Shown here: in pieces, positions 1-16,135 of the stretch
How the letters are laid out: each line of letters opens with the position of its first letter
Position numbering within the stretch: position 1 is the stretch's first letter
Origin: a virus
Strand: one strand, 5' to 3'
Virus genome (UHGV): UHGV-1639282
DNA: 16,370 nt
Made by a program: the position numbers and the translations under genes
The notes under the pieces: generated by a model
The model's database searches: none
What the model was told of the DNA's origin: nothing
Seen by the model: only the letters and a program-made list of their open reading frames with translations

Positions 1-1116
1 CTCACATAAAACCCTATTATCTCTATATTGTTCATTTTTTTCTTTTATTATATTTAGAATATTGCTTTCAGAAGAAACATAACCGTTCTTAAGGTAAAAA
101 TCTATATCATCATCGAAAGCACTTTCTGCTCGTTCATAAATAACATCAAGGCTATTAACAAATGAATATACAGAGTTAACTTCTTCCTTTTCATCTTTAT
201 CATCTAACATATAGTCGAATGCATGTATATTTTTGATTGACTCCTTAAATGAAGCATAATCAACGTTAGGAACACCAAAATAGTAAACCACTGAAAATAA
301 GACCAATCTATTAATAAAACTTTCTCTAACCTTATCCTCTGCTAACTTTAGCACATCTCTAAATATAACTAGAGATGATTTTATTTTATTTAATATTCTA
401 ATGTTTTTGATGTTTAAATCATTTACTAGGTTTTTTAACAAAAGAAAATCAGGGTCAGTCTCATAAAAAACTTTTCTTAAGTTTTTCTCAGGCGTGGGAT
501 CGTATTTTATTTCCACATCAATTATTTTTTCTCTATACTCTAAAAACTGTTGTTGTGCAGTTTCTTCATGTAAGTTATCTTCATTTAATATTAGAACAAC
601 CTTGCAATTTTTTCTTCTTGCCAACTCATCAATTACCCCCATAATCTCTTTAATTTCTAGCGCACTACCTTTTCGTTCAATATCATCAATGCAAACCAAA
701 TAATTATTAACAAATTTATACTCAAGAGATGACAGCAGATTATCAGTTTTGAACCCAAAAAAATCGTTCTTTCCAAAATGTATTAAAAATTTTGACAAGG
801 AGTTGTATTTCAACCATCCCCAAAACCCATTTCTATAACGAATCATAGTTCGATCCGTTTCAGATAAAATCAGTTCTTTATATTTCTTTTCATTAATTGG
901 TGTGGCACAATGATAAAGAGCTTTTTTAATGTCTCCAATAGAATTTATTCCAAACAAAGAAACATATGAATATGCATTATAATCTAATTTTTTAGAATGT
1001 TTAGTATAAAAGCTATTCCAATAATGCGTTTTACCTACTCCCCAATTTCCTTTTATGACAGCAACCCGATGATCTGAGTCCAAAAAATTTTTTAAAAATA
1101 CTTCTATCGATTCCAT
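1..1116 (-). CDS. KAP-family P-loop NTPase, 5' partial (ATG at 1116-1114; ORF runs off the window start, at least 372 codons)
   Basis: I scanned all 372 minus-strand codons from 1116 to 1 and found no in-frame stop; the upstream in-frame stop is at 1123-1125. The supplied ORF track does not list this ORF. Translation starts MESIEVFLKNFLDSDHRVAVIKGNWGVGKTHYW. GNWGVGKT (nt 1027-1050) is the Trp-containing Walker A typical of KAP NTPases, and LVCIDDIERK at residues 139-148 fits the KAP Walker B. SD-like AAGGA lies ~12 nt upstream of the ATG. The region is much more AT-rich than its neighbours. Confidence 0.6.
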   Translation of the reverse strand, partial: MESIEVFLKNFLDSDHRVAVIKGNWGVGKTHYWNSFYTKHSKKLDYNAYSYVSLFGINSIGDIKKALYHCATPINEKKYKELILSETDRTMIRYRNGFWGWLKYNSLSKFLIHFGKNDFFGFKTDNLLSSLEYKFVNNYLVCIDDIERKGSALEIKEIMGVIDELARRKNCKVVLILNEDNLHEETAQQQFLEYREKIIDVEIKYDPTPEKNLRKVFYETDPDFLLLKNLVNDLNIKNIRILNKIKSSLVIFRDVLKLAEDKVRESFINRLVLFSVVYYFGVPNVDYASFKESIKNIHAFDYMLDDKDEKEEVNSVYSFVNSLDVIYERAESAFDDDIDFYLKNGYVSSESNILNIIKEKNEQYRDNRVLCE

Positions 1117-1137
1117 TGGTGTCTATCCTTCAACTCA

Positions 1138-1166
1138 TATATTGGGCGTAACAAACGCCCAATATA
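1138..1166. other. Perfect 11-bp inverted repeat with 7-nt spacer (TATATTGGGCG-TAACAAA-CGCCCAATATA) between the small ORF stop and the KAP NTPase start
   Basis: Read directly from the sequence. It sits 1 nt after the stop codon at 1168-1170 and exactly at the AT-rich/GC-normal boundary. There is no U-tract on the minus-strand side, so it is not a canonical terminator for the genes here. It may be a protein-binding palindrome or an RNA stem-loop. Confidence 0.4.
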
Positions 1167-1167
1167 A

Positions 1168-1527
1168 TCACCCTTTCTTCATCAACTCGCGTTTAATTTC
1201 ATCGGTACGCATCGTGACATCGGCAGCTGTGATCGCCTCGTTAAGTTTCACGATGTCCTCGATTTCCTGCGGTGTCTTCTCCGCAAGATGGAAAATAGCA
1301 GCACGAATCACATCAGAGCGGGTGAATTTCTCGAAGCGAGGGATGAACTTCATCATCTCCAGCAGTTCGAAGTATTCGTCCTCCAGTGACATTGTGCGGC
1401 TTTTAATTTTCTCTTTGCCACGAGTCGGGCGTCCCTGTGGTCTGACTGGTTGGCGCAAAGGAGTTGTGTTCTTAGCCGGTGCATCAGGCTCTTTGCGCTT
1501 TGCTAGGTCACCCATTTTCATGGACAT
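1168..1527 (-). CDS. Small basic protein (119 aa), possible ParG-like partner of the ParA-like ATPase
   Basis: Start ATG overlaps the upstream gene's stop (TAATG at 1525-1529). The N-terminal ~45 residues are Lys/Arg/Pro-rich and look disordered (KRKEPDAPAKNTTPLRQPVRPQGRPTRGKEKIKSR). The C-terminal part (KFTRSDVIRAAIFHLAEK) looks like a strand-helix unit. The function is inferred from gene context only. Confidence 0.45.
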   Translation of the reverse strand: MSMKMGDLAKRKEPDAPAKNTTPLRQPVRPQGRPTRGKEKIKSRTMSLEDEYFELLEMMKFIPRFEKFTRSDVIRAAIFHLAEKTPQEIEDIVKLNEAITAADVTMRTDEIKRELMKKG

Positions 1528-2195
1528 TATTCTTCTTCCTCCAGACTCAACAGATAATCTACAAATTCTTCAAACTCGGCTTCCGCCTTTTTGTCGCGCT
1601 CGCTACCGGTCATTTCAAAGATAGAACGACCAGACTCTTCCGCATCATCATAGACGTTGCGGTTATATAGATTGACTGGCGCAGACTCGATGCCAAACGT
1701 CTCAACAATCTCTTTAGCCGCCAAAATGCGAGACACTTGTGATGGCAAAGCCGGGCACTGGTTCATGACCGCGCGGACCTTCACTTTATCGTTCACATTA
1801 CGAACATTGTCGATAATAGGATCGATGTCACGCAGAGATTTCAAATCACGACGCTTAGGACGAAGCGGGATAATGATAACGTCGGCCATCAGCATCGCTT
1901 GTCGCTGAATTTCGGAGTCAAAGCCACCAGCATCTACCACTACATACTCAGCTCTACCCTGAAGCGATTTTAGGTGCTTAATGATGTCATCCTGAACGTA
2001 TGCAAAAGGAATCAGCTCAAGGTCTTCGTTCTGTCGACGGTCTTCACACCAGCTTGTTGTCGTGCGCTGAATATCTATATCAGTGATATAAACCTTCTTC
2101 TTCTTTTTGACTTTCAGGCAAACGGCAATTTGCTGGGCAACAGTGGATTTGCCAGGCCCGCCCTTTGTGCCGCCAACCACAAAGATCTTGGTCAT
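1527..2195 (-). CDS. ParA/Soj/MinD-family ATPase with deviant Walker A (222 aa)
   Basis: N-terminus MTKIFVVGGTKGGPGKSTVAQQIA contains the deviant Walker A KGGxGK[ST]. A VVVDAGG motif follows, and the size matches small type-Ib partition ATPases. The protein ends in an acidic tail (LSLEEEE). ATG at 2195-2193 with AAGGGA ~9 nt upstream. Confidence 0.8.
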   Translation of the reverse strand: MTKIFVVGGTKGGPGKSTVAQQIAVCLKVKKKKKVYITDIDIQRTTTSWCEDRRQNEDLELIPFAYVQDDIIKHLKSLQGRAEYVVVDAGGFDSEIQRQAMLMADVIIIPLRPKRRDLKSLRDIDPIIDNVRNVNDKVKVRAVMNQCPALPSQVSRILAAKEIVETFGIESAPVNLYNRNVYDDAEESGRSIFEMTGSERDKKAEAEFEEFVDYLLSLEEEE

Positions 2196-2341
2196 TGGAG
2201 AGTTCCCTTTGCGTATATAATTATCGTCTGAAACAACTTGTTTTCTTATATGTGATATAGCCTAAATGCCTACGGCTGCGGTGTAAAGGTTATTTAGTAG
2301 GTTGTTATTGCCTATTGCTAGTAACTGTTTTCATTTGTCTG

Positions 2342-2370
2342 TTGAAAAAAGTGACAATCATCTCTATATT
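2342..2370 (+). promoter_or_regulatory. Candidate sigma70 promoter TTGAAA-N17-TATATT, directed toward ataR
   Basis: Hexamers at 2342-2347 and 2365-2370 with a 17-bp spacer, each 5/6 match to consensus. The predicted start site falls on the dyad at 2375-2393. It lies ~145 bp upstream of the ataR ATG. Sequence pattern only. Confidence 0.3.
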
Positions 2371-2374
2371 ACGA

Positions 2375-2393
2375 GTACGGTAAATTGCCGTAC
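2375..2393. promoter_or_regulatory. Dyad symmetry GTACGG-N7-CCGTAC, candidate operator
   Basis: Inverted hexamers read directly from the sequence, positioned at the predicted +1 of the candidate promoter in the divergent region between the ParA-like gene and ataR. Confidence 0.3.
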
Positions 2394-2417
2394 ACAATTT
2401 GATGACACATACGCAAT

Positions 2418-2504
2418 GGGCTATAGCCCAGTTAAATAACCTTTGAGTCGAAAACTCAGTTTAAATAGAGAGCAATGATGGCCTTCCTACATCACCGGCC
2501 ATCA
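2418..2504. promoter_or_regulatory. Cluster of dyad symmetries in the ataR leader: GGGCTATAGCCC (2418-2429), TGAGT-N5-ACTCA (2444-2458), TGATGGCC-N13-GGCCATCA (2476-2504)
   Basis: A perfect 12-bp palindrome and two inverted repeats read directly from the sequence. The last one ends at the ataR Shine-Dalgarno (AGGGGG, 2505-2510). Type II antitoxin/TA complexes commonly autoregulate by binding palindromes in their own promoter region. Confidence 0.3.
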
Positions 2505-2514
2505 GGGGGTACAC

Positions 2515-2784
2515 ATGTCCGCACTGAAAAAGCAGCGCATCGATTTGAGATTAACCGATGACGATAAAAGCATCATCGAGGAAGCTGCCGCAATGTCTAA
2601 CCAGAGCATTACCCAGTTCATGGTTAGCAGTGCATCCGAACGTGCCGTGAAGGTGATAGAGCAACACCGTAGACTGGTTCTAAGTGAAGAGTCCTGGAAT
2701 CTGGTTATGGACGCTATAAGCAATCCTCCGGCACCGAACGACAAGCTGAAACGAGCTGCCAATCGTCTGAAAAGCATGGAGTAA
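2515..2784 (+). CDS. ataR: DUF1778-type RHH antitoxin (AtaR/TacA family)
   Basis: 89 aa: MSALKKQRIDLRLTDDDKSIIEEAAAMSNQSITQFMVSSASERAVKVIEQHRRLVLSEESW. It closely resembles AtaR/TacA sequences as I recall them, and it sits 7 nt upstream of a GNAT toxin gene. ATG with AGGGGG SD. Confidence 0.88.
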   Translation: MSALKKQRIDLRLTDDDKSIIEEAAAMSNQSITQFMVSSASERAVKVIEQHRRLVLSEESWNLVMDAISNPPAPNDKLKRAANRLKSME

Positions 2785-2791
2785 TTTACTC

Positions 2792-3313
2792 GTGAGCAAT
2801 ACGACGATCGAGATTTTCTCTGGAGAGAACGATTATGATCTAAACGGTTTTGATTGCGGCGAAGAGTCACTAAACGCATTTTTGACCAACCACTTAAAAA
2901 GACAGCATGAAGGAAAAATTCTTCGCGCTTATGTGCTTTGCACTAAAGAAGAAATACCAAAGGTATTAGGTTATTACACTTTGTCAGGCAGCTGCTTTGA
3001 GAAAGAAACCTTACCTTCAAAGAGTCAGCAAAAGAAAGTGCCTTATCGGAATGTCCCAAGTATCACTTTAGGCAGACTGGCTTTGGACAAATCTCTTCAA
3101 GGTCATGGGCTTGGCTCAATGCTTGTAACACATGCAATGCGCGTTGTGTACAATGCATCTCTTGCTGTAGGCATTCATGGACTTTTCGTTGAGGCGTTAA
3201 ATGACAAAGCCAAGGCGTTTTATAAAAGTTTAGGCTTTATCCAGCTGGTTGGTAACAACGAGCGTTCTTTGTTCTATCCTACAAAATCTATCGAAAAATT
3301 GTTCGAAGAATAA
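2792..3313 (+). CDS. ataT: GNAT-family acetyltransferase toxin (AtaT/TacT family, aminoacyl-tRNA acetylating)
   Basis: 173 aa, GTG start with GGAG upstream. Contains the GNAT core LQGHGLGSMLVTHAMRVVYNASLAVGIHGLFVEALNDKAKAFYKSLGF and the N-terminal DYDLNGFDCGEESLNAFL segment typical of AtaT/TacT. Classic antitoxin-then-toxin order. Confidence 0.88.
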   Translation: MSNTTIEIFSGENDYDLNGFDCGEESLNAFLTNHLKRQHEGKILRAYVLCTKEEIPKVLGYYTLSGSCFEKETLPSKSQQKKVPYRNVPSITLGRLALDKSLQGHGLGSMLVTHAMRVVYNASLAVGIHGLFVEALNDKAKAFYKSLGFIQLVGNNERSLFYPTKSIEKLFEE

Positions 3314-3316
3314 TGT

Positions 3317-3338
3317 GTTCCCCTCATTTGAGGGGAAC
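3317..3338. terminator. GC-rich hairpin (GTTCCCCTCA-TT-TGAGGGGAAC) between convergent ataT and o-spanin stops
   Basis: 10-bp perfect inverted repeat, 4 nt after the ataT stop (3311-3313) and 8 nt before the o-spanin stop (3346-3348). Flanking T-runs are short on both sides, so efficiency is uncertain. Plausibly a bidirectional terminator. Confidence 0.45.
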
Positions 3339-3345
3339 TTCGACA

Positions 3346-3561
3346 TCACCAACCACAAACCCTCTCTCCCATCGTATTGTGAAAAAGGATTTGGCGTTCG
3401 GTTTCTTCAGTCATTACATCATTATTGCTGATATAGATAGGCTCAGCCCCATCGCAGAACAACACGCTGGCTGTTTGTGGTTTAATGACGCACCCACTTA
3501 TCATACAACTCACGATGAACGGCAGAAGCATCTTTCTGACGTATTTTACTGCTCGTCTCAT
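3346..3561 (-). CDS. Putative o-spanin (Rz1-like outer-membrane lipoprotein), overlapped architecture
   Basis: N-terminus MRRAVKYVRKMLLPFIVSCMISGC has a basic n-region, a hydrophobic core and a lipobox-like ISGC. It is a short protein with additional Cys residues. It starts inside the 3' part of the i-spanin gene in another frame and extends beyond it. Confidence 0.5.
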   Translation of the reverse strand: MRRAVKYVRKMLLPFIVSCMISGCVIKPQTASVLFCDGAEPIYISNNDVMTEETERQILFHNTMGERVCGW

Positions 3562-3733
3562 TCACCACTTTCACTGTGTTTTGAAGTCGTTTTCTGTCTT
3601 CCTGTTTTGCCTTCTCTTCCATTGCTCGTCGCGCCGCATTCCCGCCCATCGTGTAAGCGCCGACAAGAACGAAAAGAACGGCAGCCAGCGTAATCAAAGC
3701 AACTTTTAGCTTTGTCATCAGGCTGCCTAGCAT
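3482..3733 (-). CDS. Putative i-spanin (Rz-like): N-terminal TM helix plus charged helical periplasmic domain
   Basis: 83 aa with TM segment LKVALITLAAVLFVLVGAYTM followed by a charged helical region (RRAMEEKAKQEDRKRLQ). The ATG is 1 nt after the stop of the upstream hydrolase-like gene. It is short for an Rz protein, so the call is tentative. Confidence 0.5.
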   Translation of the reverse strand: MLGSLMTKLKVALITLAAVLFVLVGAYTMGGNAARRAMEEKAKQEDRKRLQNTVKVVNETSSKIRQKDASAVHRELYDKWVRH

Positions 3734-3734
3734 A

Positions 3735-4427
3735 TTAGACCATCCCTTTCTGGTGTTTTCTTACCTGCGACCAGGCAATGAATCCTGCCACAACAATAGT
3801 GGCAATACCGAAGATGATGCGTACTGTATCCCCGCTAGAGATATGACCTTGTGCTTTATCCATAGCAGCGGAAACCTGCGGCATAACATCGGCCAGCTGA
3901 GCCAGACCAATACCTGCTGTAACAGTTGCGCCTGCGGTTTCTTTAGTTACAGGAACAGCCTTCACGGTTTTCACCGGCTTAACAACGCCAGCTCGACGCA
4001 GACCTTCCTCAATAACTTCTGCCGCATACCAGGTGTTCAGCGTTTTTAGCGGGCCTCGGCCATTCTCGTGGCGAATGATTGCCTCAACCAAAGGTCGAAG
4101 GATGTCGTAATCATGCAGATCGATGATCATGTCTGCGGTTACACCAACGGCTTTAGACACCTCATTAATGTAGGCGTCAGTATTGTTTTCATTCGGCGGT
4201 GCCCAGCGTTCAATAACTTCACGAATGGTATCGATACTTGTGCCGTCTTTTGCGCGACGTTTATCGTGGTAGGTAATTAGAGTCACCGCCAGCGCACGAA
4301 TCCCCCAAACAGGGTCTTTAAACGTGCAAAAGCGCGGTTCGTCTGGATTCGCAACCAGACCTTGCCACGGTGATCCTTTATCAAGATTACCGGGGTTATT
4401 ATTACGAATGCCTCTCGGGGTCTTCAT
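3735..4427 (-). CDS. Putative endolysin-like protein with C-terminal transmembrane anchor (230 aa from ATG 4427; the ORF track's 4454 start is GTG)
   Basis: Starts MKTPRGIRNNNPGNL with a strong SD (CAGGAGA) 8-9 nt upstream of the ATG at 4427-4425. The C-terminus has a Lys/Val/Thr-rich linker and a hydrophobic helix IIFGIATIVVAGFIAWS. The N-terminal motif is reminiscent of phage lytic-enzyme families, but I cannot confirm the family without a search. The lysis role is inferred mainly from the adjacent spanin pair. Confidence 0.45.
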   Translation of the reverse strand: MKTPRGIRNNNPGNLDKGSPWQGLVANPDEPRFCTFKDPVWGIRALAVTLITYHDKRRAKDGTSIDTIREVIERWAPPNENNTDAYINEVSKAVGVTADMIIDLHDYDILRPLVEAIIRHENGRGPLKTLNTWYAAEVIEEGLRRAGVVKPVKTVKAVPVTKETAGATVTAGIGLAQLADVMPQVSAAMDKAQGHISSGDTVRIIFGIATIVVAGFIAWSQVRKHQKGMV

Positions 4428-4440
4428 CCTTGATCTCCTG

Positions 4441-4764
4441 TTATTGCAGTCCACTTTTTACGCCATACGCGGCTAACCCCAAAAGCAGTGCGGTAATAAT
4501 GAACGACGTTATTTTAGAAACAATGCCGCCAAAGAACCCACTTGAGATGGAATCTAACCGGTTAAGGAGTTTGTCCAGATTGGAGTGTTGAATACTATGT
4601 TGCGCCGGGGTCATATCACCAAAGTAGGTTTTCAGCTGATCATTGACCTCCTGGCCAATTTCTTCACGTAGCTCTTTACCTAATTTGCCAACAACCTCCC
4701 GAGCAACGATCGCGGCAATACGCTCAACTTGCTCTGTTGTAACGCCCGCCATCTCGTTCGACAT
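4441..4764 (-). CDS. Small membrane protein, possible holin or lysis regulator (107 aa from the ATG at 4764, which has a GGAGGA SD)
   Basis: The ORF track starts at 4776, but the in-frame ATG at 4764-4762 has GGAGGA 6 nt upstream. There is a soluble ~85-aa N-terminal region and a single C-terminal TM helix (ITSFIITALLLGLAAYGV). Its position immediately upstream of the hydrolase-like gene suggests a holin role, but the topology is atypical. Confidence 0.4.
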   Translation of the reverse strand: MSNEMAGVTTEQVERIAAIVAREVVGKLGKELREEIGQEVNDQLKTYFGDMTPAQHSIQHSNLDKLLNRLDSISSGFFGGIVSKITSFIITALLLGLAAYGVKSGLQ

Positions 4765-6641: not shown

Positions 6642-9600
6642 TTAAATACTTCCCGCGTTATACCATGTACCATTGATACAATACTGCACCGGCCTTGCCT
6701 GAGTTGTATCAATAAGTTCGTCCTTATTTGAGTTAATTGAGGCAGTAACAACATAACCAGATTTATCGTTCCATCCAGGACCATTCCATGTTTGCACAGA
6801 CGATTTTGTACCTAATCGAATACCTGTAATAAATCGTGAATTACATTCTGCTTTGGTATATGCCCCAACATCTCCCGCAGATGGTTTGCGTGTTGTAGTA
6901 TAAAATTCCGACCAGTCGGCTTCAAAACCATAACCGTCACGCGCAGAACGATAATAAATACCGCCGTTCTTATAATTCACGCGGAACTGTACAGCAGGGC
7001 AGCTCCCCGTATTCATATTGAAGTGGAGGATTAATGTCGATGCTCCACTGATATCTGCATCATAAACACCGCTATTCCAGTTCCAGCCAACAGCTTTATC
7101 ATTTGCAACCCTGCTTCCTGTTTGCCCTAAAGCAAATGCAGGCTGCTGGTTTTTCGTGTTGTAGTCTCGTCGCCAGCCAGGAGCATAAGCATCACCATGA
7201 TTAATATAAGTGAATTGTGCATTAGTAGTTCCGCCACCGCTGGAAGTGCTCGGGGTGGTTACACGGATGGTCATGGCACCTTTATTACCCATAACCTCAA
7301 TAACGCAACCAGCAAGGTGAATAAGTCCACATCCGGTGTCAGTAATAATTTTATTATTGCCGTATGACCATGAGCATTTACACATCCAGTATGGATGATT
7401 GAAGGCCCACTGAGATTCCAGCCATTCAATAAATTGCGCCGTCGTCCAGTTTCCTGCACCTGTGCTAATAGAGCCATGAAAAGAGCGGCAAGCACCTATT
7501 GTTTGCGTAAATTTATCTTTGTTTGGAATATCTGCGCCGTTCTGGTTTTTCTGTAATGCTCCTGCGGCTAATTCTACAGTTTGCTCAAGATTTAAATCTG
7601 CCGCCGTTAGCTCAATATTTTTAGAACCGTCAAACGACACCCCATTTATAGTTCTAGCGGTTTGTAACTTGGTCGCTGTAGCCGCGTTACCGGATGTATT
7701 CTGATTACCCGCAACGTTAACACCAGGTAAATTAATATTCGCAGTGCCATCGAAGCTAACACCACCGATGGTTCTTGCTGTCGCAAGTTTTGTCGCGGTA
7801 GCAGCATTCCCCGTGGTGTTCTGGTTACCAGCAATGTTTACACCCGGCAGGTTGATATTGGCGGAGCCATCGAATGACACGCCGCCTATTGTGCGTGCTG
7901 TTTGCAGTTTTGTTGCAGTTGCAGCATTACCGTTCAAACTACCATTGATGCCGCCAGTAACATTGAGTCCATTACCAATGGACACAGCACCGCTGGTATT
8001 ATTAATTGTAATAGGTCGCAAACCGTTCCATGAACCTAATGTGTCTCCTGATGCTGTTAGCATGAAATATGTGTTCGATCCATCATTACGGATAAAGAAC
8101 CCAAAGCTACCGTAAGCAATGCGGAAACCATTTGCATATTTTGAAATGATCTCGCCAGAAGATGTCAAACCTCCAGATAATGTACCACCGGTAAGAGGTA
8201 ATGCACCGACATCAGCCGCAGTAGGCTTGTTTTTAGTGTTATAAGAACGACGCCAGCCTGGCGCATAATCACTCCCATTGTACACATAAATAAATTCCGC
8301 ATTATTAACACCACCATGACCTGATGTTGTTGTCGTTGTAACACGAATAGTGTAGTGGCTTGTTGACTTATTACTAAACACCTCAATCACGGAACCAGAT
8401 AGATCGATCCTACCGCAACCAGTGTCGTCTATATAATTATTGTTGGCGTAAGCCCATGAGCACCGTGCAATCCAATATTTGTTTGAAAATGCACCCTGAT
8501 TATTTAGCCAAGTTATAAATTGAGCAGTCGTAAATGGCGTTCCGTTACCACTATTTAACCATCCAGCGGCAGCGGTTGGCGCGTTTATATCAGCCGGCTG
8601 AGGCATAAATCCAGTCGTGTAAACCTGCTCCCAACCACTTTCAAAACCATAGCCATCGCGAGATGAACGATAAAACAACCCACCATTTTTATAGTGAGCC
8701 TTAATTTGAAGCGTACGGCAACTACCTACACCAGTATAAAAGTTGGCAAGAATATAACTGTCGCCCGTTCTAGTTACATTATAAGCACCAGATTCAGCAT
8801 TCCACGGCACGCCGCCATCAGCATCAGCATATGACCCTGTTGCTCTTCTTGCGAAAGCGGCAACATGCGCGGCGGTTAAAGTGATATCAGTAGAGCCATC
8901 AAATGGAACACCGGATATTTTTCTTGCAGTCTGAAGTTTCGTAGCTGTATCAGAGTTCCCCTTAACCCCTTTTGGAGAATTAAGTGGTGTATTGATCGTC
9001 ACTTCACCTGTTGCGTTATTTACTGCAAATGGTCGAAGACCGTTCCAGCCACCGTACTGGTCGCCTTTATCAGTCATGAGCAAGTAAGTATTTGCTCCAT
9101 CATTTCGCCATATGACACCGTAATCGCCAGCAATCATCCTTAACGCATTCTGACTACGGACAATAACTTCATCATTAGCGTAAACCTTATTACCGCTAAT
9201 ATCCGCATTTGTGAGGAGTGCGTGCGAACTATAGAATCCTCTACCGTTGGAGAAATCAAGTATAGTATCAGCGTCCACGCATTCTGTTCTAGGGTCTGTA
9301 GCGCCCCATTTGTAAGTTGATTGCCCGATAACATAATCGGCAGATGGTACAACAACAGATAAGCCTTCTTCTACATATACAGCAATAGGAAACGCTTCAC
9401 CTTCAACATAGAACACAGAACACAGATCATCCGCTTTTCTACCCATCATGATAGAATGAATAGCACGCTCATTTGCGTGATAGATATGAAACATTCCATA
9501 AGCATAATGTCCCCTGTCAGTCCAACCGCCAGGCATGACAAAACCATTGAACTCACAGTTGTTCATCCTATCATTGGCAGTCTTTGAACTTGTACTTATC

Positions 9601-11297
9601 GTCACCCTGGATGCTAATTCACTGCTGAATCCAGAAGAACGACGAATAACCACAGGGTAAAACTTACCAGCTTCAACTCCTGCGGGCGCATTCACTGTTG
9701 AATACTTCATTCCTCGTTTAGCGGCCATATCAGTCTTGCTGGCAGCATTAATGTTGCTCAGGAAGCGGCCCTTGTCTGGGATATCAGCGCCATTCTGATT
9801 CTTCGCCAATCGGCTATTCGCATTGTCATTGGCTGCTTTTACTGCCTTTGGCGTTGCCGCCAGCGTTTCAGACGTGCTGTTGGTCGCACTGCTGAGCTGT
9901 ACTATCCCCTTTTTCGTCGTGCTCGCATCCTCAAGCGCCACAGCGGATGCAATATCCTCTGCCCGTTTTGCCGCTGTCTCGGCGCGCGTTGCCGCGGATT
10001 CTGCCGTACTTTTGCTCTGTGCTGCCGCCGTCGCACTGCCAGCTGCCTCTGTCGCCTTCGTGGATGCCGTCGTGGCGCTGCCCTTCGCTGCTGACGCTTG
10101 TCTGGTCGCCTCATCTTTTGAAGCAGACGCAGATGATGCCGATGACGCCGCCGAACTGGCTGACGATGCGGCAGCCGTTTTTGAGGATTCTGCGCTGGTT
10201 TCCGACGCTTTCGCGTTCGTTTCGGATGTCTTCGCTGCGGAAGCAGACCTCGCTGCTGCGCTGGCCTGTTCAGTGGCTTCGCCAGCCTTCGTTGTGGCTG
10301 TTGAAGCAGACGATGCGGCGCTTTCTGCCGATTTTCCGGCGGCGGTGGCACTGGCTGAGGCCTGCCCGGCACTTGTTGACGCGGCACTGGCAGACGACGC
10401 AGCCGCTGTTTTTGAGCCTGCCGCAGCTGAGGCGCTCTGTCCCGCTGCCGTCTCAGAAGACTTAGCGTTCGTCTCGGACGTTTTTGCCGCCTTCGCGGAA
10501 TTTGCTGCCGCCGTTGCCGAGGAAGCTGCGCTACTGGCGCTCAAGGATGCGTTCGTTTCTGATGATTTCGCTGCCTCTTTTGAGGCCGCCGCATCCCGGG
10601 CTGAGGTGGCAGCTTCTGACGCTTTCGTGGTCGCGGTGGATGCAGAAGTGGCTGCTGATTGTTGTGACGCTGCGGCATTCGTTTCAGATTTTTTCGCAGC
10701 AGTTGCACTCGCACTTGCGGCACTTTGTGAGGATGCCGCATCGGATGCACTTTGAGACGCTTGAGAGGCTTTTTCTCCAGCGGTATTGGCGCTTTCTGCT
10801 GCTGCGGCAGCACTGGCCGCCGCCTCACGAGCTTTGTCGCCAGCAGCATCAATCGCGTCAGTGTTATTTTTATACCACTCAACGTTTTCGTTGTGCTCGT
10901 TGACGATCTGCATTAGCGGCTTAACGGTTACTTCTGTACCGTCTTCACGCTCGATTGTCACCTCATCCAGCGCAGTCAACCAACTGCGCATGGACTTGGA
11001 ATCAGCCGACATACGCGACATTAGCGCAGTAAAGCGCGCGCTAAACTGTGTTAAGTCGCCTTCATAGGTCGTAATGATTCGGCACGGAACCTCAGACTGA
11101 GTTTCGCCGGTATAAGGTTCTGAGAGAACAATGTTCGTATCACTGGTTACGCGCTTGATCTCATACAGCTTATTGTCGGGGCCAATGACGATCATCCCCG
11201 GCAACACACCATTAGCTGTTACGTTCCAGGCTGTCCCTGCCCCAACCAGAGTATTGCTACCCTGTGTAAATGTGATAGTACCTTCCCTGTACCACAT
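6642..11297 (-). CDS. Side tail fiber protein (Stf-like), 1551 aa, mosaic
   Basis: ATG with AAGGAG 8 nt upstream. Long Ala/Ser/Thr-rich shaft containing [24 protein letters not shown] and [42 protein letters not shown], which I recall as near-identical to lambda Stf. Phage tail fibre repeats ([29 protein letters not shown]) in four copies. Duplicated distal modules, followed by tfa. Confidence 0.9.
7590..7945 (-). repeat. Three tandem ~120-bp coding repeats (phage tail fibre repeat, ~40 aa each) inside stf; a fourth isolated copy near 8880-8960
   Basis: Protein repeats [40 protein letters not shown] x3 with matching DNA periodicity visible at 7600-7940. The isolated copy reads [29 protein letters not shown]. 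Boundaries are approximate. Confidence 0.6.
9950..10850 (-). repeat. Low-complexity GC-rich (GCN-codon) Ala/Ser/Thr-rich shaft-coding region of stf
   Basis: About 300 aa dominated by A/S/T with recurring KTSETNA/SASAA motifs. Its lack of stops in several frames produces the long spurious overlapping ORFs on both strands in the supplied track. Boundaries are approximate. Confidence 0.6.
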
Positions 11298-11390: not shown

Positions 11391-14300
11391 TCACAGACGG
11401 CCAATTCTTACTCGTAGGACGTTGTTATCGTCATAAACGTCAATCCGCTGACCATTTATAACCAATCGCCCATTGCCGCCGCTATTACCGTTGATCTCAA
11501 GCGTTCCATTTTTGCCGAACCGCCATCCAGATCTACCGCTAACAAAATTGGTAGATTGCAGATCGCCTACTTTTGCATTGGTGATTGTGCCATCCTTGAT
11601 ATACGCTCCATTCATATAGGCGATACTGTTTTCGATAACAAATGGCGTTGTGATCTTCCCGTTAACAGAGTTGACCAAACCAAACCTGTCCGCCTGAACC
11701 AAAAACTGAGATAGCCCAGTGGTGTCAATACCAAGCGCAATACCGGCAACATACTTCTGCCCTCCGCTCGTTGAAGTCTCCATTTTCAACGTCCACGCGG
11801 TTGATACTTTTTTGTTGGTATCAGCAATAGCTGTTGCCTGCTGTTGAATTGTCGCGGTATTTCCATCCACCTCTGCTTTCAGAGTATCGATTCGCCCACT
11901 CAGAGCATTATCTGCCTGCGTTCTCGCTGTCGTTTCAGTTGTTACCGCCGCGGAAATGTTGGCTGCCGTTTGAGACTCTAAGTTTGTGATTTGAGTCGCC
12001 AATGCAGCATCTTGCTCTGTACGCGTTTTCGTTTCGGTTGCTACAGCCGCTTTAATATCCTCTTTGTATTGAGAGGTCAGCTTGGTGATCTGAGACGACA
12101 ACGCCGAGTCAGCATCAGTTCGAGCCTGCGTTTCAACTGCAACGGCCGCACTAATATCTTTCGCTGTCTGTGCTTTTAAACTTGAAACCTCTTTTGTTAA
12201 AGCGGTATCACCATCTGCACGAGCCGTTGTTTCTCTGGCAAGAGACGCCTCGAGATCATTAGCTTTTGCTGTAAGAGACGTAATCTGGGTAGACAATGCA
12301 CTATCGGCATCAGTCCTTGCTTTTGTCTCTACAGCAACCGCTGCGGCAATATCAGTTCCGGTTTGTGCTCGCAGGCTGTTAATTTCTCGTGAGAGCGCCT
12401 GGTCAGCACTTGCTCTGGCCTCCTGCTCCTGAGTGATGGCAGCGGATATATCACCGTCAACCTTTGACTGAAGCTGGTTTATTTGTTTGGCTAACGCAGA
12501 GTCCCCGCTTGCTCGGGCCTCCTGCTCACTACGTATTGCAGCAGAAATATCATCATCAACCTTTGCCTGAAGTTGGGTGATCTGGCTTGCCAGAGCCGAA
12601 TCTTCCGTTGCTCGGGCTTCTTGCTCTTCCTTAATAGCTGCGACGATATCGTTGCTTACTTTCGACTCAAGCTGAGTGATCTGTGTCGTCAGAGCTTCAT
12701 CGGCAGATGTACGAGCCTCCTGCTCTGTACTAATCGCCGCGCTGATATCTCCTTCAAACTTAGATTGCAGCTGAGTGACACGCTTTGCCAACGCTTCATC
12801 GCCATCGGCACGAGCGGTGGACTCTTCCAGAATACTGGCCTTAATGTCTTCGCCAATTTCTACGCGAATTTCCTCAACCTTCGTGGCCATTGCAGACATA
12901 TCATCAGCAAAGGTTTTCTGTGTTGTTGCGATCTTCGCGTTATTGACCATCTGCTTGTGCTGGTCTTCATCTTGACGAAGAGCCAGGTCAATATTTGTTT
13001 TGGCTAACGCCTCAATGTTCGTAGTCAGTTCTGCACTGGTACGATCGACCTCTGCAACCGTCTTTTTCATTTCTTCAACGGCAGCGGAGCTTTCCTCTAC
13101 CGTTGACTGCAACACTTCCAGTTGTTTAGCGTTTGCAGCATCGCCTTCAACACGAGCCTCGCTTTCCTTAGCAATAAGAGCCGCCGCTTCATCTCTTGCA
13201 GCCTTTATTGCCTCGACTGTATTAGCGAGAGCTTTATCGTGTTCAGATACGGTGTTTTCGATTTCAACAATTGCAGCATCAGTAGCATCAATTTTTTCAA
13301 ACGCTTCATTGACCTTGTCGATCGTTGCCGAAACCTCACCTTTAAGCTCGGTTTGTGCGTTCTCCAAAGCATCGCTACGCTCGTTGAATTTTATTTCAAA
13401 ATCCGCGAGGTTATCGCTGAACTGCTTATCTAATTCAGCTATATCTTCCTTAACGTCGTTTACCGCCCCCTCCAAAGATTCGACGCTCTGGTTGATATGC
13501 TCATTTAACTCGTCAACTGCTTCTTGAGAGGCTTTGCTGTTGATGTCCTCAAGCAGAGCCTGACCAAGCTCGGAAGATGTAATTTTGCCAGTCAGGAACG
13601 ACAGTACATCGCGAGTTGTCGCCTCTGTACCCAAGTTTGAGTTCGGAGGACTTAACATACCTCGCTTGTTCGATGCTCGAACCCAGTAATACCACGTTTC
13701 GCTATCCCCAAGACCAGCATGTGTAAAGGTGGTGCTTGCAGACTCTGCGATCAGTTTCGCCGTATCCAGATTGTTGGTCTGGGATGCGTAAACATTAATG
13801 TGATCAAGGTCTACCGAATCTGGATTAACCCAATTCAGTATCACATTACGATAGTCTCCAACGGCCGTTAATGACGTTGGGGAATCCGGCGGTGTCATTG
13901 TGCCCAACACCTGATAAACGGCACTGATAATCTCTGTTTTTTTACCGTTGAATGAAACCGCATACAGCTGGAAGTCGTAGCGTCCATTCTCCGCGACATT
14001 AACGATTTCGTATTGCTCTTCGGTTACACGCGCCGATTGCCAGTTCGATACATTGTTTTCATCAGAACGTCGCCAACTGATCCAATACTCTGGAGATTTC
14101 CCTTCCCATGTTGCAGTCAGTTTTACTGACAGGTTGCCCGGGCTTGAGAGATAAGTCCCTTCAGTGATTTGCAGATTAGATGGCTTGGAGTAAGTTGGGT
14201 CCAATACCGTCGTATTCTGCGGGATCAGCGTTGCACCATTGTCGATTGCCTCATATTTAGACGGATTGTTCTCAACAGCGGTGATGTCAAAGCTACCCGG

Positions 14301-16118: not shown

Positions 16119-16135
16119 GTTCAAAAAATCCTTGT

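What the first reader, a model, noticed from the sequence alone, without database searches (positions are those of the whole stretch)
1168..2195. ParA-like ATPase plus small basic partner, co-oriented with the KAP NTPase: partition module or part of a defence operon?
A 222-aa deviant Walker A ATPase (KGGPGKST) is translationally coupled (TAATG) to a 119-aa protein with a disordered Lys/Arg-rich N-terminus and a possible ribbon-helix-helix C-terminus. That architecture is typical of type-Ib partition systems (ParF/ParG-like). A partition cassette beside tail and lysis genes would suggest the element is maintained as a plasmid-prophage rather than integrated. Alternatively the pair could act together with the immediately downstream KAP NTPase, from which it is separated by only ~50 bp and a palindrome, as a three-gene array of unknown function.
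Basis: inference. Interest (0 to 1): 0.6.

Follow-up and report, generated by a model that had tools for sequence, protein, structure and literature searches.

The report
Partition cassette of SSU5-like phage-plasmid
These two overlapping genes are most likely the plasmid-segregation module (a ParA ATPase plus a small DNA-binding adaptor) of a common family of E. coli phage-plasmids. The neighbouring KAP NTPase is unrelated, swappable cargo, so the finding is largely ordinary, except that the small partner protein has never been annotated.

Summary
A 222-aa deviant-Walker-A ATPase (1527-2195, minus strand) overlaps by TAATG a 119-aa protein (1168-1527) with a disordered basic N-terminus.

The window comes from an SSU5-supergroup phage-plasmid. 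It is 94-97% identical over window 1-4500 to circular ~110-kb E. coli plasmids. In 5,426 complete E. coli genomes the module occurs 264 times, never on a chromosome.

The ParA matches small partition ATPases best (ParF of TP228, NCBIfam ParA_partition). The small protein belongs to an unannotated family (phrog_5111, 49 clusters). In all 12 lineages examined it sits directly after a small ParA, including on non-phage Rep3 plasmids.

A ribbon-helix-helix fold is suggested only by convergent sub-threshold hits. It lies centrally (aa 41-84), not at the C-terminus.

A 69-bp block upstream of parA is 96-99% conserved, while synonymous sites are only 52-60% identical. It holds the likely promoter and two palindromes. 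No iterated centromere array exists in this lineage.

The KAP NTPase has 28% GC and occurs in only 23 of ~728 related plasmids. It occupies a slot that holds other candidate defence genes in relatives, so the three-gene reading is rejected.

Side finding: the palindrome AAACA-N3-TGTTT in the par promoter recurs 12 times across the replicon.

Verdict: a type Ib-like partition cassette, a new member of a known kind.

The parts
1527..2195 (-). parA: 222-aa small Walker-type (ParA/MinD superfamily) ATPase without an N-terminal DNA-binding domain
   Evidence: ORF. Pfam AAA_31, MipZ and CbiA above cut-off. PHROG 164 'ParA-like partition protein' E 2e-51. NCBIfam ParA_partition E 2.3e-33 over the full length, but 115.5 bits against a cut-off of 180. 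Best PDB matches are ParF of TP228 (4dzz, E 3e-10) and ParA 5u1g.
2142..2165 (-). Deviant Walker A motif KGGPGKST (aa 11-18)
   Evidence: Read directly from the translation.
1168..1527 (-). Small partner gene (119 aa), proposed ParG/omega-like centromere-binding adaptor; start overlaps the parA stop (TAATG)
   Evidence: ORF. phrog_5111, unknown function, E 1.5e-79. No Pfam family. 49 homologous clusters, all unnamed. Always directly downstream of a 212-229 aa ParA.
1495..1515 (-). Conserved N-terminal peptide MGDLAKR (aa 5-11; family motif hydrophobic-G-x-L-x-K/R), proposed ParA-contacting and ATPase-stimulating tail
   Evidence: L8 is invariant and the motif is kept in all 29 aligned members, while the following linker varies in length and sequence. 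The region is disordered in AF2. The functional role is inferred by analogy with ParG residues 15-23 (PMC5393062).
1276..1407 (-). Putative ribbon-helix-helix unit (aa 41-84: strand IKSRTMSLE, helix 50-59, loop, helix 70-82 starting with the invariant TRSDVIRAA)
1174..1272 (-). Two C-terminal helices (aa 86-97, 101-117) beyond the putative RHH; role unknown (possibly oligomerisation)
   Evidence: AF2 with a 29-sequence alignment, pLDDT 80-95 in this part.
2224..2292 (.). Ultra-conserved non-coding block upstream of parA: candidate promoter, operator and partition site
   Evidence: 66-68 of 69 bases identical to SSU5 and two Klebsiella phage-plasmids, while parA third codon positions are only 52-60% identical. 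One copy per plasmid in 728 plasmids.
2282..2287 (-). Putative -35 hexamer TTTACA of the par promoter
   Evidence: Read from the sequence. The same TTTACA/TTGTCA-N17-TAGGCT/TAGTAT geometry appears in diverged lineages L008, L013 and L015. Not called by the consensus scan. Inference.
2259..2264 (-). Putative -10 hexamer TAGGCT (17-nt spacer)
   Evidence: As above. TTAGGCTA is invariant in five lineages. Inference.
2247..2259 (.). Palindrome TATAT-GTG-ATATA overlapping the -10 and the expected transcription start; candidate par-specific operator
   Evidence: Sequence. Conserved in lineages whose small protein is at least 89% identical, and diverged in L023 and L015. Resembles the YATAT-type boxes upstream of parA in L010 and L024. 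Inference.
2231..2243 (.). Palindrome AAACA-ACT-TGTTT in the par 5' leader: one copy of a replicon-wide operator
   Evidence: The only exact match in the window. 12 exact copies in the closest complete plasmid against 0.14 expected. Half-sites conserved with free spacer and flanks across lineages.
2203..2207 (-). Shine-Dalgarno AGGGA of parA, 7 nt before the ATG
   Evidence: Read from the sequence.
1138..1166 (.). Perfect 12-bp-arm hairpin between the small gene and the KAP gene. It belongs to the KAP cargo segment, not to the par module.
   Evidence: arms 100% complementary. (-20.4 kcal/mol, z -4.2). Relatives without KAP align only from about 1167 onward.
1..1113 (-). Neighbour, not part of the module: N-terminal 371 codons of a 568-aa KAP-family P-loop NTPase (candidate single-gene defence cargo)
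   Evidence: Pfam KAP_NTPase. PADLOC candidate PDC-S49, E 1.6e-21, for the full-length homologue. GC 27-29%. Present in 23 related plasmids only.

Best explanation
The two genes are the active-partition (par) operon of an SSU5-supergroup phage-plasmid, which is kept in lysogens as a low-copy circular ~110-kb plasmid. The operon is organised like type Ib systems such as ParF/ParG of TP228 or delta/omega of pSM19035.

Shown here:
- ParA is a small deviant-Walker-A ATPase without a DNA-binding N-domain.
- Its gene is translationally coupled to a 119-aa protein.
- The pair is inherited as one unit across phage-plasmids and ordinary plasmids.
- The pair is exclusively extrachromosomal in E. coli.
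- A 69-bp block directly upstream is under strong purifying selection.

Inferred:
- The small protein dimerises through a central ribbon-helix-helix unit and binds sites inside that upstream block. This would both repress the par promoter and build the partition complex.
- Its disordered N-terminal peptide (MGDLAKR) docks into ATP-bound, nucleoid-associated ParA dimers and stimulates ATP hydrolysis, so plasmid copies are moved apart by the usual ParA gradient (diffusion-ratchet) mechanism.

The KAP NTPase downstream is independent, horizontally acquired cargo in a variable slot.
For: - Element identity: 93-98% DNA identity to E. coli phage-plasmids (CMS-2020a, Cyrano/pLF82) and 83% to phage SSU5. 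The closest complete record is a circular, non-mobilizable IncFIB plasmid of 111 kb.
- Location: 264 places in 263 of 5,426 complete E. coli genomes, 0 on chromosomes.
- ParA class: PHROG 164 ParA-like partition protein, E 2e-51. NCBIfam ParA_partition is the best family, E 2.3e-33, full length. The top PDB hits are ParF (4dzz) and ParA (5u1g).
- Pair conservation: a small-protein homologue directly follows a 212-229 aa ParA in all 12 lineages looked at (from an 8-nt overlap to a 10-nt gap). These include Rep3-ParA-small plasmids with MobC/NikA and no phage genes. ParA is 38-41% identical where the small protein is 22-29% identical.
- Small-protein architecture: conserved N-terminal peptide, variable linker, basic stretch, strand-helix-helix with the S/T-R-S-D-V-x-R-A motif. 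The RHH signals are convergent but sub-threshold.
- cis element: the 69-bp block is 96-99% identical against 52-60% at synonymous sites. Relatives carry clear arrays or palindromes at the same place: 5 x YATATG at 9-bp spacing in L010; six AAACA motifs in L015; a 9-bp-arm palindrome that occurs only once in the 14 kb of L024.
- Natural replacement: pMT1 of Y. pestis, from the same supergroup, lacks both genes and carries a type Ia ParA/ParB instead.
- Expression: the Cyrano homologue of the small gene is transcribed in lysogens, 9-fold over local background (PMC9928086).
Against: - There is no experimental test of stabilisation, DNA binding or ATPase stimulation for this family.
- ParA scores below the curated NCBIfam ParA_partition cut-off (115.5 against 180).
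- This lineage has no iterated centromere array, only two short palindromes.
- One of those palindromes is shared by at least 12 promoters of the replicon, so it is not par-specific.
- The centromere could therefore lie elsewhere.
Confidence: 0.75

Rival explanations
1. ParA, the small protein and the KAP NTPase form one three-gene functional array (for example a defence operon) and act together.
For: They are co-oriented and only 54 bp apart. The KAP homologue matches the PADLOC candidate defence family PDC-S49.
Against: - KAP GC is 27-29% against 47-49% for the pair.
- KAP is present in 23 plasmids, while the par block is in 728.
- A strong hairpin (-20.4 kcal/mol) lies between them and belongs to the KAP segment.
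- The same slot holds DUF2971/PDC-S31, Abi_2/PD-T4-5, Fic, DUF5713 or nothing in relatives.
- The pair occurs without KAP in every other lineage.
Confidence: 0.03
2. The pair is chiefly a gene-regulation module. The small protein would be a repressor of the replicon-wide AAACA-N3-TGTTT regulon, with ParA as its cofactor. Segregation would be secondary or handled elsewhere.
For: - The par leader carries one of 12 exact copies of this palindrome.
- In lineages whose small protein keeps the strand residues S-x-T-x-S, the densest AAACA cluster of the locus lies upstream of parA. Lineages with other strand residues lack it.
- Known precedents from the literature (my own knowledge): omega of pSM19035 and KorB of RK2 are both partition proteins and global regulators.
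Against: - pMT1 lacks the small protein yet keeps four palindromes in homologous promoters, although this may simply be recent descent.
- Helicase promoters conserve only the palindrome, while the par promoter conserves 49 further bases, which implies an additional par-specific constraint.
- The pair also exists on small Rep3 plasmids that have no such regulon.
- No other complete partition system is annotated on the replicon.
Confidence: 0.12
3. The 119-aa protein is a RelE/ParE-type toxin, as annotated for its homologue CYRAN_29 in phage Cyrano, and is unrelated to ParA function.
For: The annotation in OV696614.1 and PMC9928086.
Against: - No ParE or RelE family hit in Pfam, NCBIfam or PADLOC for the window protein, nor in Pfam for any of the 29 family members.
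- No cognate antitoxin gene. The weak fold signals point to RHH, which is an antitoxin or DNA-binding fold.
- Strict linkage to ParA.
Confidence: 0.02
4. The true centromere-binding partners of this ParA are the two ParB_N-domain proteins encoded about 35 kb away beside the terminase genes. The small protein would be an unrelated passenger.
For: Two ParB N-terminal-domain proteins exist on the closest complete plasmid (record positions 17853-19201; Pfam ParB_N E 3e-13 and 1e-8).
Against: - They are retained in pMT1, which lacks this ParA and uses its own type Ia ParAB.
- They sit in the packaging region.
- The small gene is translationally coupled to parA in all lineages, including plasmids that have no ParB_N genes in the fetched locus.
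Confidence: 0.03

Closest known systems
ParF / ParG / parH of plasmid TP228 (type Ib partition)
   Same: - A small ParA (206 aa there, 222 aa here) with a deviant Walker A; ParF is the best solved-structure match.
- A downstream small protein with a disordered N-terminal tail followed by a (putative) ribbon-helix-helix.
- The tail motif here (M-G-D-L-A-K-R) resembles the ParG ParA-binding segment, residues 15-23 with Gly16 and Arg19 (PMC5393062). The ParG sequence itself was recalled from memory.
- A regulatory or partition site upstream of parA.
   Different: - The small protein is 119 aa, not 76, and has two extra C-terminal helices.
- There is no detectable sequence similarity to ParG (hhalign E 0.59).
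- ParA is only distantly related to ParF (43 bits).
- No array of tetramer boxes like parH is seen in this lineage.
delta / omega of pSM19035 and IncC / KorB of RK2 (partition proteins that are also global regulators)
   Same: The par promoter contains an operator that recurs at many promoters of the replicon. There are 12 exact 13-bp palindromes here. From my own knowledge, RK2 has 12 KorB operators and omega binds heptad arrays at several promoters.
   Different: It is not shown here that the small protein is the factor that binds the dispersed palindrome. KorB is a large HTH ParB, not an RHH protein. Omega sites are 7-bp heptad arrays.
SopAB of the linear phage-plasmid N15 and ParAB of P1 (partition systems of other phage-plasmids)
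   Same: The biological role is the same: stable inheritance of a prophage that replicates as a plasmid. From my own knowledge, N15 has dispersed centromere sites that also influence phage gene expression (Ravin et al. 2008, cited in PMC11652158).
   Different: Those are type Ia systems, with a large ParA carrying an N-terminal HTH and a large HTH/CTPase ParB. This one is type Ib-like, with a small non-ParB adaptor.
McdA / McdB carboxysome positioning

Membership tests
Type Ib plasmid partition system | Small (about 190-310 aa) deviant-Walker-A ParA without an N-terminal HTH domain | tested here: met
   222 aa. The Walker A starts at residue 8-11. Best matches are ParF and ParA_partition over the full length.
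Type Ib plasmid partition system | Gene for a small non-ParB centromere-binding protein directly downstream in the same operon | tested here: met
   TAATG overlap here. The adjacency is conserved in 12 lineages. DNA binding itself was not tested.
Type Ib plasmid partition system | [quoted passage not shown] | tested here: inconclusive
Type Ib plasmid partition system | Flexible N-terminal tail of the binding protein that contacts ParA and stimulates its ATPase | not testable with these tools
   The tail is disordered and carries a family-wide conserved motif, hydrophobic-G-x-L-x-K/R. Its function is inferred by analogy.
Type Ib plasmid partition system | Centromere of iterated short repeats upstream of parA, overlapping the autoregulated promoter | tested here: inconclusive
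   No tandem or iterated array in 1100-2560. However, a 69-bp block is under strong constraint and holds two palindromes. Clear arrays exist at this position in relatives L010 (5 repeats) and L015 (6 motifs).
Type Ib plasmid partition system | The cassette stabilises an otherwise unstable low-copy replicon | not testable with these tools
   Indirect evidence only. The module is exclusively plasmid-borne. It is replaced by a type Ia parAB in pMT1.
NCBIfam NF041546 ParA_partition (equivalog) | Score at or above the curated cut-off (180 bits) | tested here: not met
   115.5 bits, E 2.3e-33. It is the best-scoring family, but below the cut-off.
Pfam PF01402 RHH_1 (CopG family) | Score at or above the gathering threshold (20.5 bits) | tested here: not met
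   The window protein has no hit. Relatives score 12.8-16.7 bits.
RelE/ParE toxin family (annotation of the Cyrano homologue) | Match to a ParE or RelE profile, and a cognate antitoxin gene | tested here: not met
   No such hit in Pfam, NCBIfam or PADLOC. The upstream gene is parA.
SSU5-supergroup phage-plasmids | Synteny and DNA similarity with SSU5/pHCM2-like circular plasmid prophages; extrachromosomal location | tested here: met
   83% identity to SSU5 and 93-98% to E. coli members. The gene order tail fibre - lysis - par - helicase is the same. 0 of 264 places are chromosomal.
KAP NTPase multi-gene system that includes ParA and the small protein | Consistent co-occurrence of the three genes | tested here: not met
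   KAP is in 23 plasmids, against 728 that carry the par block.

The most novel reading that the evidence does not exclude
The 119-aa protein may be more than a local centromere binder. It may be the factor that recognises the 13-bp palindrome AAACA-N3-TGTTT, which sits in the leader of at least 12 promoters spread over the phage-plasmid, including par, the DnaB-like helicase gene and the gene upstream of the terminase genes. It would then be an RHH-type counterpart of KorB or omega. A single small protein would build a dispersed, multi-site partition complex and also hold a replicon-wide set of phage-plasmid genes under autoregulated control, coupling segregation to the lysogenic gene programme.
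Probability: 0.25. Interest if true: 0.7.

Novelty: new member of a known kind. Interest (0 to 1): 0.33.

Why it matters
SSU5-type phage-plasmids are common. This module is in 263 of 5,426 complete E. coli genomes and in about 730 PLSDB plasmids from Klebsiella, Escherichia, Enterobacter, Salmonella and others. According to the literature read here, these elements carry resistance and defence genes.

Their ParA is routinely annotated. Its partner is everywhere 'hypothetical', and in phage Cyrano it is called a toxin and counted as a moron.

Assigning the small protein as the probable centromere-binding adaptor does four things:
- It corrects that annotation.
- It defines the unit that probably sets partition incompatibility between these elements.
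- It points to a 69-bp candidate partition and operator site.
- It shows that the position just downstream of the cassette is a swap site for candidate defence genes.

None of this changes how partition is understood.

Tried and rejected
- Profile searches of PDB sequences gave only E > 0.2.
- An exhaustive HMMER search of 1.84 billion representatives found only 18 proteins. No bridge to a named family emerged.
- Rfam found nothing real in 1050-2600.
- Direct-repeat and TRF searches found no iterated array near the cassette.
- The consensus promoter scan did not call the par promoter. The promoter proposed here rests on cross-lineage conservation only.
- A large inverted repeat built from 2205-2296 and 2409-2444 was considered as a structure. 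It was rejected because the sub-matches are in the wrong order for a hairpin and are not conserved in Cyrano.
- The second 'AAA family ATPase' on the replicon was checked as a possible second ParA. It is a kinase-like AAA_28 protein.
- The Gilcrease and Casjens 2018 paper on these plasmid prophages could not be retrieved.
- One Python run timed out and was repeated with a cheaper shuffle.
Full report
**What is in the sequence.** On the minus strand the window encodes a 222-aa protein (1527-2195) and a 119-aa protein (1168-1527). The stop of the first and the start of the second share one base (TAATG), and a GGAGGA ribosome-binding site lies 9 nt upstream. The larger protein begins with a deviant Walker A, GGTKGGPGKST. 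The smaller one has a Lys/Arg/Pro-rich N-terminal third that AlphaFold2 leaves disordered. Downstream lies a 54-bp gap holding a perfect 12-bp-arm hairpin (1138-1166; -20.4 kcal/mol, z -4.2). After it comes the 5' part of a KAP-family NTPase gene (<1-1113). The one exception is that the putative ribbon-helix-helix is central (aa 41-84) and is followed by two more helices.

**What the element is.** Window 1-4500 is 94-97% identical to circular, non-mobilizable IncFIB plasmids of about 110 kb from E. coli. It is 93-96% identical to 'Escherichia phage' records CMS-2020a and Cyrano (= pLF82), and 83% identical to Salmonella phage SSU5. Gene order in these relatives is tail fibres, holin/endolysin/Rz, a variable insert, parA plus the small gene, a variable slot, then a conserved 246-aa gene, a DnaB-like helicase, primase and ligase. 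This is the SSU5 supergroup of phage-plasmids described in PMC7969092 and PMC11652158. Among 5,426 complete E. coli genomes the cassette occurs 264 times in 263 genomes, every time on a plasmid and never on a chromosome.

**The ATPase.** Pfam places it in the ParA/MinD superfamily, with AAA_31, MipZ and CbiA above threshold. PHROG 164 'ParA-like partition protein' matches at E 2e-51. The best NCBIfam model is the ParA_partition equivalog, aligned end to end at E 2.3e-33, but at 115.5 bits it stays below the 180-bit curated cut-off. The best solved relatives are ParF of TP228 (4dzz) and ParA 5u1g. There is no N-terminal DNA-binding domain. It is therefore a small, type Ib-style ParA, distantly related to the characterised ones.

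**The small protein.** It has no Pfam family, and its PHROG (5111) has no assigned function. The word-indexed search found 25 clusters, and a profile search found 49. An exhaustive HMMER scan of 1.84 billion representatives found only 18. None has a name.

The alignment of 29 members shows a fixed plan:
- a short conserved N-terminal peptide (hydrophobic-G-x-L-x-K/R; MGDLAKR here; Leu8 invariant);
- a linker that varies in length and sequence;
- a basic stretch;
- I-K-S-R-T-M-S-L-E-D-E, a helix, a loop, and a second helix that starts with the near-invariant (S/T)-R-S-D-V-x-R-A.

This strand-helix-helix pattern, with S/T-R-S at the start of helix 2, is typical of ribbon-helix-helix proteins. 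The tools gave only sub-threshold support:
- NCBIfam aCcr1 (an RHH family), E 2.3e-4;
- Pfam RHH_1 in 12 of 29 members at 12.8-16.7 bits against a cut-off of 20.5, in the right register;
- the RHH protein ORF56 as second PDB profile hit, E 0.8;

Foldseek found nothing. The second AF2 model has pLDDT 73 and four helices. A monomer model cannot form the inter-subunit ribbon. I therefore treat the RHH as probable, not shown. The Cyrano annotation of the homologue as a RelE/ParE toxin has no support in any profile library.

**The pair is a unit; the KAP gene is not part of it.** In every lineage whose context I fetched, the small gene directly follows a 212-229 aa ParA, anywhere from an 8-nt overlap to a 10-nt gap. 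The lineages are Providencia, Moellerella, three Klebsiella lineages, Enterobacter, several metagenomic contigs, SSU5 and Cyrano.

The most distant member is 29% identical to the window protein in the family alignment. It lies on small plasmids in the order Rep3 initiator - ParA - small protein, next to MobC/NikA, with no phage genes. That is a standard plasmid backbone. Its ParA is 41% identical to the window's.

By contrast, the KAP gene:
- has 27-29% GC against 47-49% for the pair;
- occurs in only 23 plasmids, while the par upstream block occurs in 728;
- arrives together with its own hairpin, since relatives lacking it align only from about 1167.

The same slot holds a DUF2971 protein (PADLOC candidate PDC-S31) in Cyrano and SSU5, an Abi_2 protein (PD-T4-5) in L013, Fic in the Rep3 plasmids, and DUF5713 in Providencia. 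The KAP protein itself matches candidate PDC-S49. The three-gene reading is rejected. The slot looks like a cargo and defence hotspot.

**The cis region.** No tandem or iterated repeats exist in 1100-2560. However, the 69 bp at 2224-2292 are 66-68/69 identical between the window, SSU5 and two Klebsiella phage-plasmids. In the same comparisons parA third codon positions are 52-60% identical, and even second positions are 94-98%. The block is single-copy in 728 plasmids.

Read on the parA strand, the block contains:
- TTTACA-N17-TAGGCT; the same geometry recurs in diverged lineages L008, L013 and L015, but the consensus scan does not call it;
- the palindrome TATAT-CAC-ATATA over the expected start site;
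- the palindrome AAACA-AGT-TGTTT in the leader.

In lineages where the small protein has diverged to 62% (L023) or 48% (L015) identity, only the two hexamers and CATAAGAAAACA-N3-TGTTT stay fixed. The spacer and the first palindrome change.

Relatives show what a par site can look like at this position:
- five YATATG boxes at 9-bp spacing in the Rep3 plasmids;
- six AAACA/TGTTT motifs across the promoter in L015;
- a 9-bp-arm palindrome that occurs only once in the 14 kb of L024.

I conclude that the block is the par promoter plus protein-binding sites. I cannot say which bases are the centromere.

**A replicon-wide palindrome.** In the closest complete plasmid (NZ_CP020118, 111,212 bp) the exact pattern AAACA-N3-TGTTT occurs 12 times. 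Block shuffles give a mean of 0.14 and a maximum of 3 in 300 trials. Further one-mismatch copies lie in the same setting. Most copies sit about 13-15 nt after a -10-like hexamer and 12-105 nt before a start codon. The genes concerned include par, the helicase gene, the gene upstream of the terminase genes, and a run of small genes at 6-12 kb. At the helicase promoter only the palindrome is conserved across lineages, while at par a further 49 bp are conserved. The par operon thus belongs to a plasmid-wide regulon.

Who binds the palindrome is open.
- For the small protein: lineages that keep S-x-T-x-S in the putative strand have their densest AAACA cluster upstream of parA, and lineages with other strand residues do not.
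- Against: pMT1 of Y. pestis lacks both par genes (tblastn) but keeps four palindromes in homologous promoters. That retention may be mere recent descent.

**Other candidates on the replicon.** Two ParB_N-domain proteins lie beside the terminase genes. They are also present in pMT1, which lacks this ParA and carries its own type Ia ParA/ParB. They are therefore unlikely partners. A second annotated 'AAA ATPase' is kinase-like. The replacement of this cassette by a classical parAB in pMT1 is itself consistent with a partition role.

**Mechanism proposed.** Shown: the architecture, the linkage, the extrachromosomal location and the constrained upstream block. Inferred: dimers of the small protein bind the upstream block through an RHH ribbon, repress the par promoter and form the partition complex. 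The N-terminal peptide, which resembles the Gly16/Arg19 segment of ParG that docks in the ParF dimer interface (PMC5393062), stimulates ATP hydrolysis by nucleoid-bound ParA. Plasmid copies are then separated by the ParA gradient. The homologous small gene is transcribed in Cyrano lysogens (PMC9928086), as a maintenance gene should be.

**Comparison and novelty.** In how it works, this is a type Ib partition system. For membership, the ParA and operon criteria are met. The RHH and centromere criteria are inconclusive. The functional criteria are untestable here. The curated ParA_partition and RHH_1 thresholds are not reached. ParA in SSU5-type elements is already annotated as a partition protein. 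I found no paper that assigns the small partner.

**Verdict.** A new member of a known kind, of modest interest (0.33). The dispersed palindrome and the cargo slot are the more unexpected by-products.

Noticed in passing
window 2231-2243; NZ_CP020118.1 at 5970, 6021, 9256, 9633, 10118, 11771, 21170, 53099, 56866, 82627, 105840, 106569 (loci L018-L020): The 13-bp palindrome AAACA-N3-TGTTT occurs 12 times exactly in the 111-kb phage-plasmid (0.14 expected), plus one-mismatch copies. Most copies lie just downstream of a -10-like hexamer and upstream of a gene start, and the half-sites are conserved across lineages. This looks like the operator of a replicon-wide regulon. The binding factor is unknown.
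   Followed up: partly
window 1-1167; L001 5202-6005; L002 4088-6000; L013 4591-5559; L010 3374-4468; L006 4431-4772: The position directly downstream of the par cassette is a swap site. It holds KAP NTPase/PDC-S49 here, DUF2971/PDC-S31 in Cyrano and SSU5, Abi_2/PD-T4-5 in L013, Fic on Rep3 plasmids, and DUF5713 in Providencia. The KAP gene has 27-29% GC and occurs as two alleles (99% and 88% identical) in 23 E. coli/Shigella plasmids.
   Followed up: partly
window 2515-3313 (+), promoter-like site 2342-2370, palindrome 2375-2393: A TacA-like (DUF1778) antitoxin and a GNAT toxin pair lies divergent from par. It has a good sigma-70-like promoter (TTGAAA-17-TATATT) followed by the palindrome GTACGG-N7-CCGTAC, probably its own operator. 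The pair is present in the E. coli sub-lineage only; SSU5 and Klebsiella relatives carry other genes there.
   Followed up: partly
window 2285-2296 and 2433-2444: A perfect 12-nt inverted repeat (AAAGGTTATTTA / TAAATAACCTTT) with arms 136 nt apart brackets the tacAT promoter region and overlaps the putative par -35. It is not conserved in Cyrano. It may be an insertion scar or chance.
   Followed up: no
L021/L022 (NC_003134.1, Y. pestis pMT1): pMT1 shares the SSU5-type structural genes and repA but lacks the 222-aa ParA, the small protein, the lysis genes and the helicase. An IS100 abuts the tail-fibre genes. It carries a type Ia ParA/ParB pair instead, which is a natural replacement of one partition system by another.
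   Followed up: partly
L010 2075-2141 and L011 (Rep3 plasmids from metagenomes): Five YATATG boxes at exact 9-bp spacing lie immediately upstream of parA in small mobilisable Rep3 plasmids that carry the most distant homologue of the small protein. This is a textbook-looking type Ib operator/centromere array.
   Followed up: partly
L001 6002-6361 (CYRAN_29); L003 7168-7521: Annotation issues. The Cyrano homologue of the small protein is labelled 'RelE/ParE putative toxin' and was counted as a moron. RefSeq starts the gene two codons later (117 aa), losing the TAATG overlap. Some RefSeq records name the ParA 'division plane positioning ATPase MipZ'.
   Followed up: yes
L018 17853-19201 (NZ_CP020118.1): Two adjacent ParB_N-domain proteins followed by an ABC-type ATPase lie upstream of the terminase genes and are conserved in pMT1. 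They are probably a phage function rather than partition.
   Followed up: partly
window 6642-11297 and 11391-16124 (-): Two very large tail-fibre or host-specificity genes (1551 and 1577 aa). The first has a long Ala/Ser/Thr-rich low-complexity segment and internally repeated C-terminal modules.
   Followed up: no
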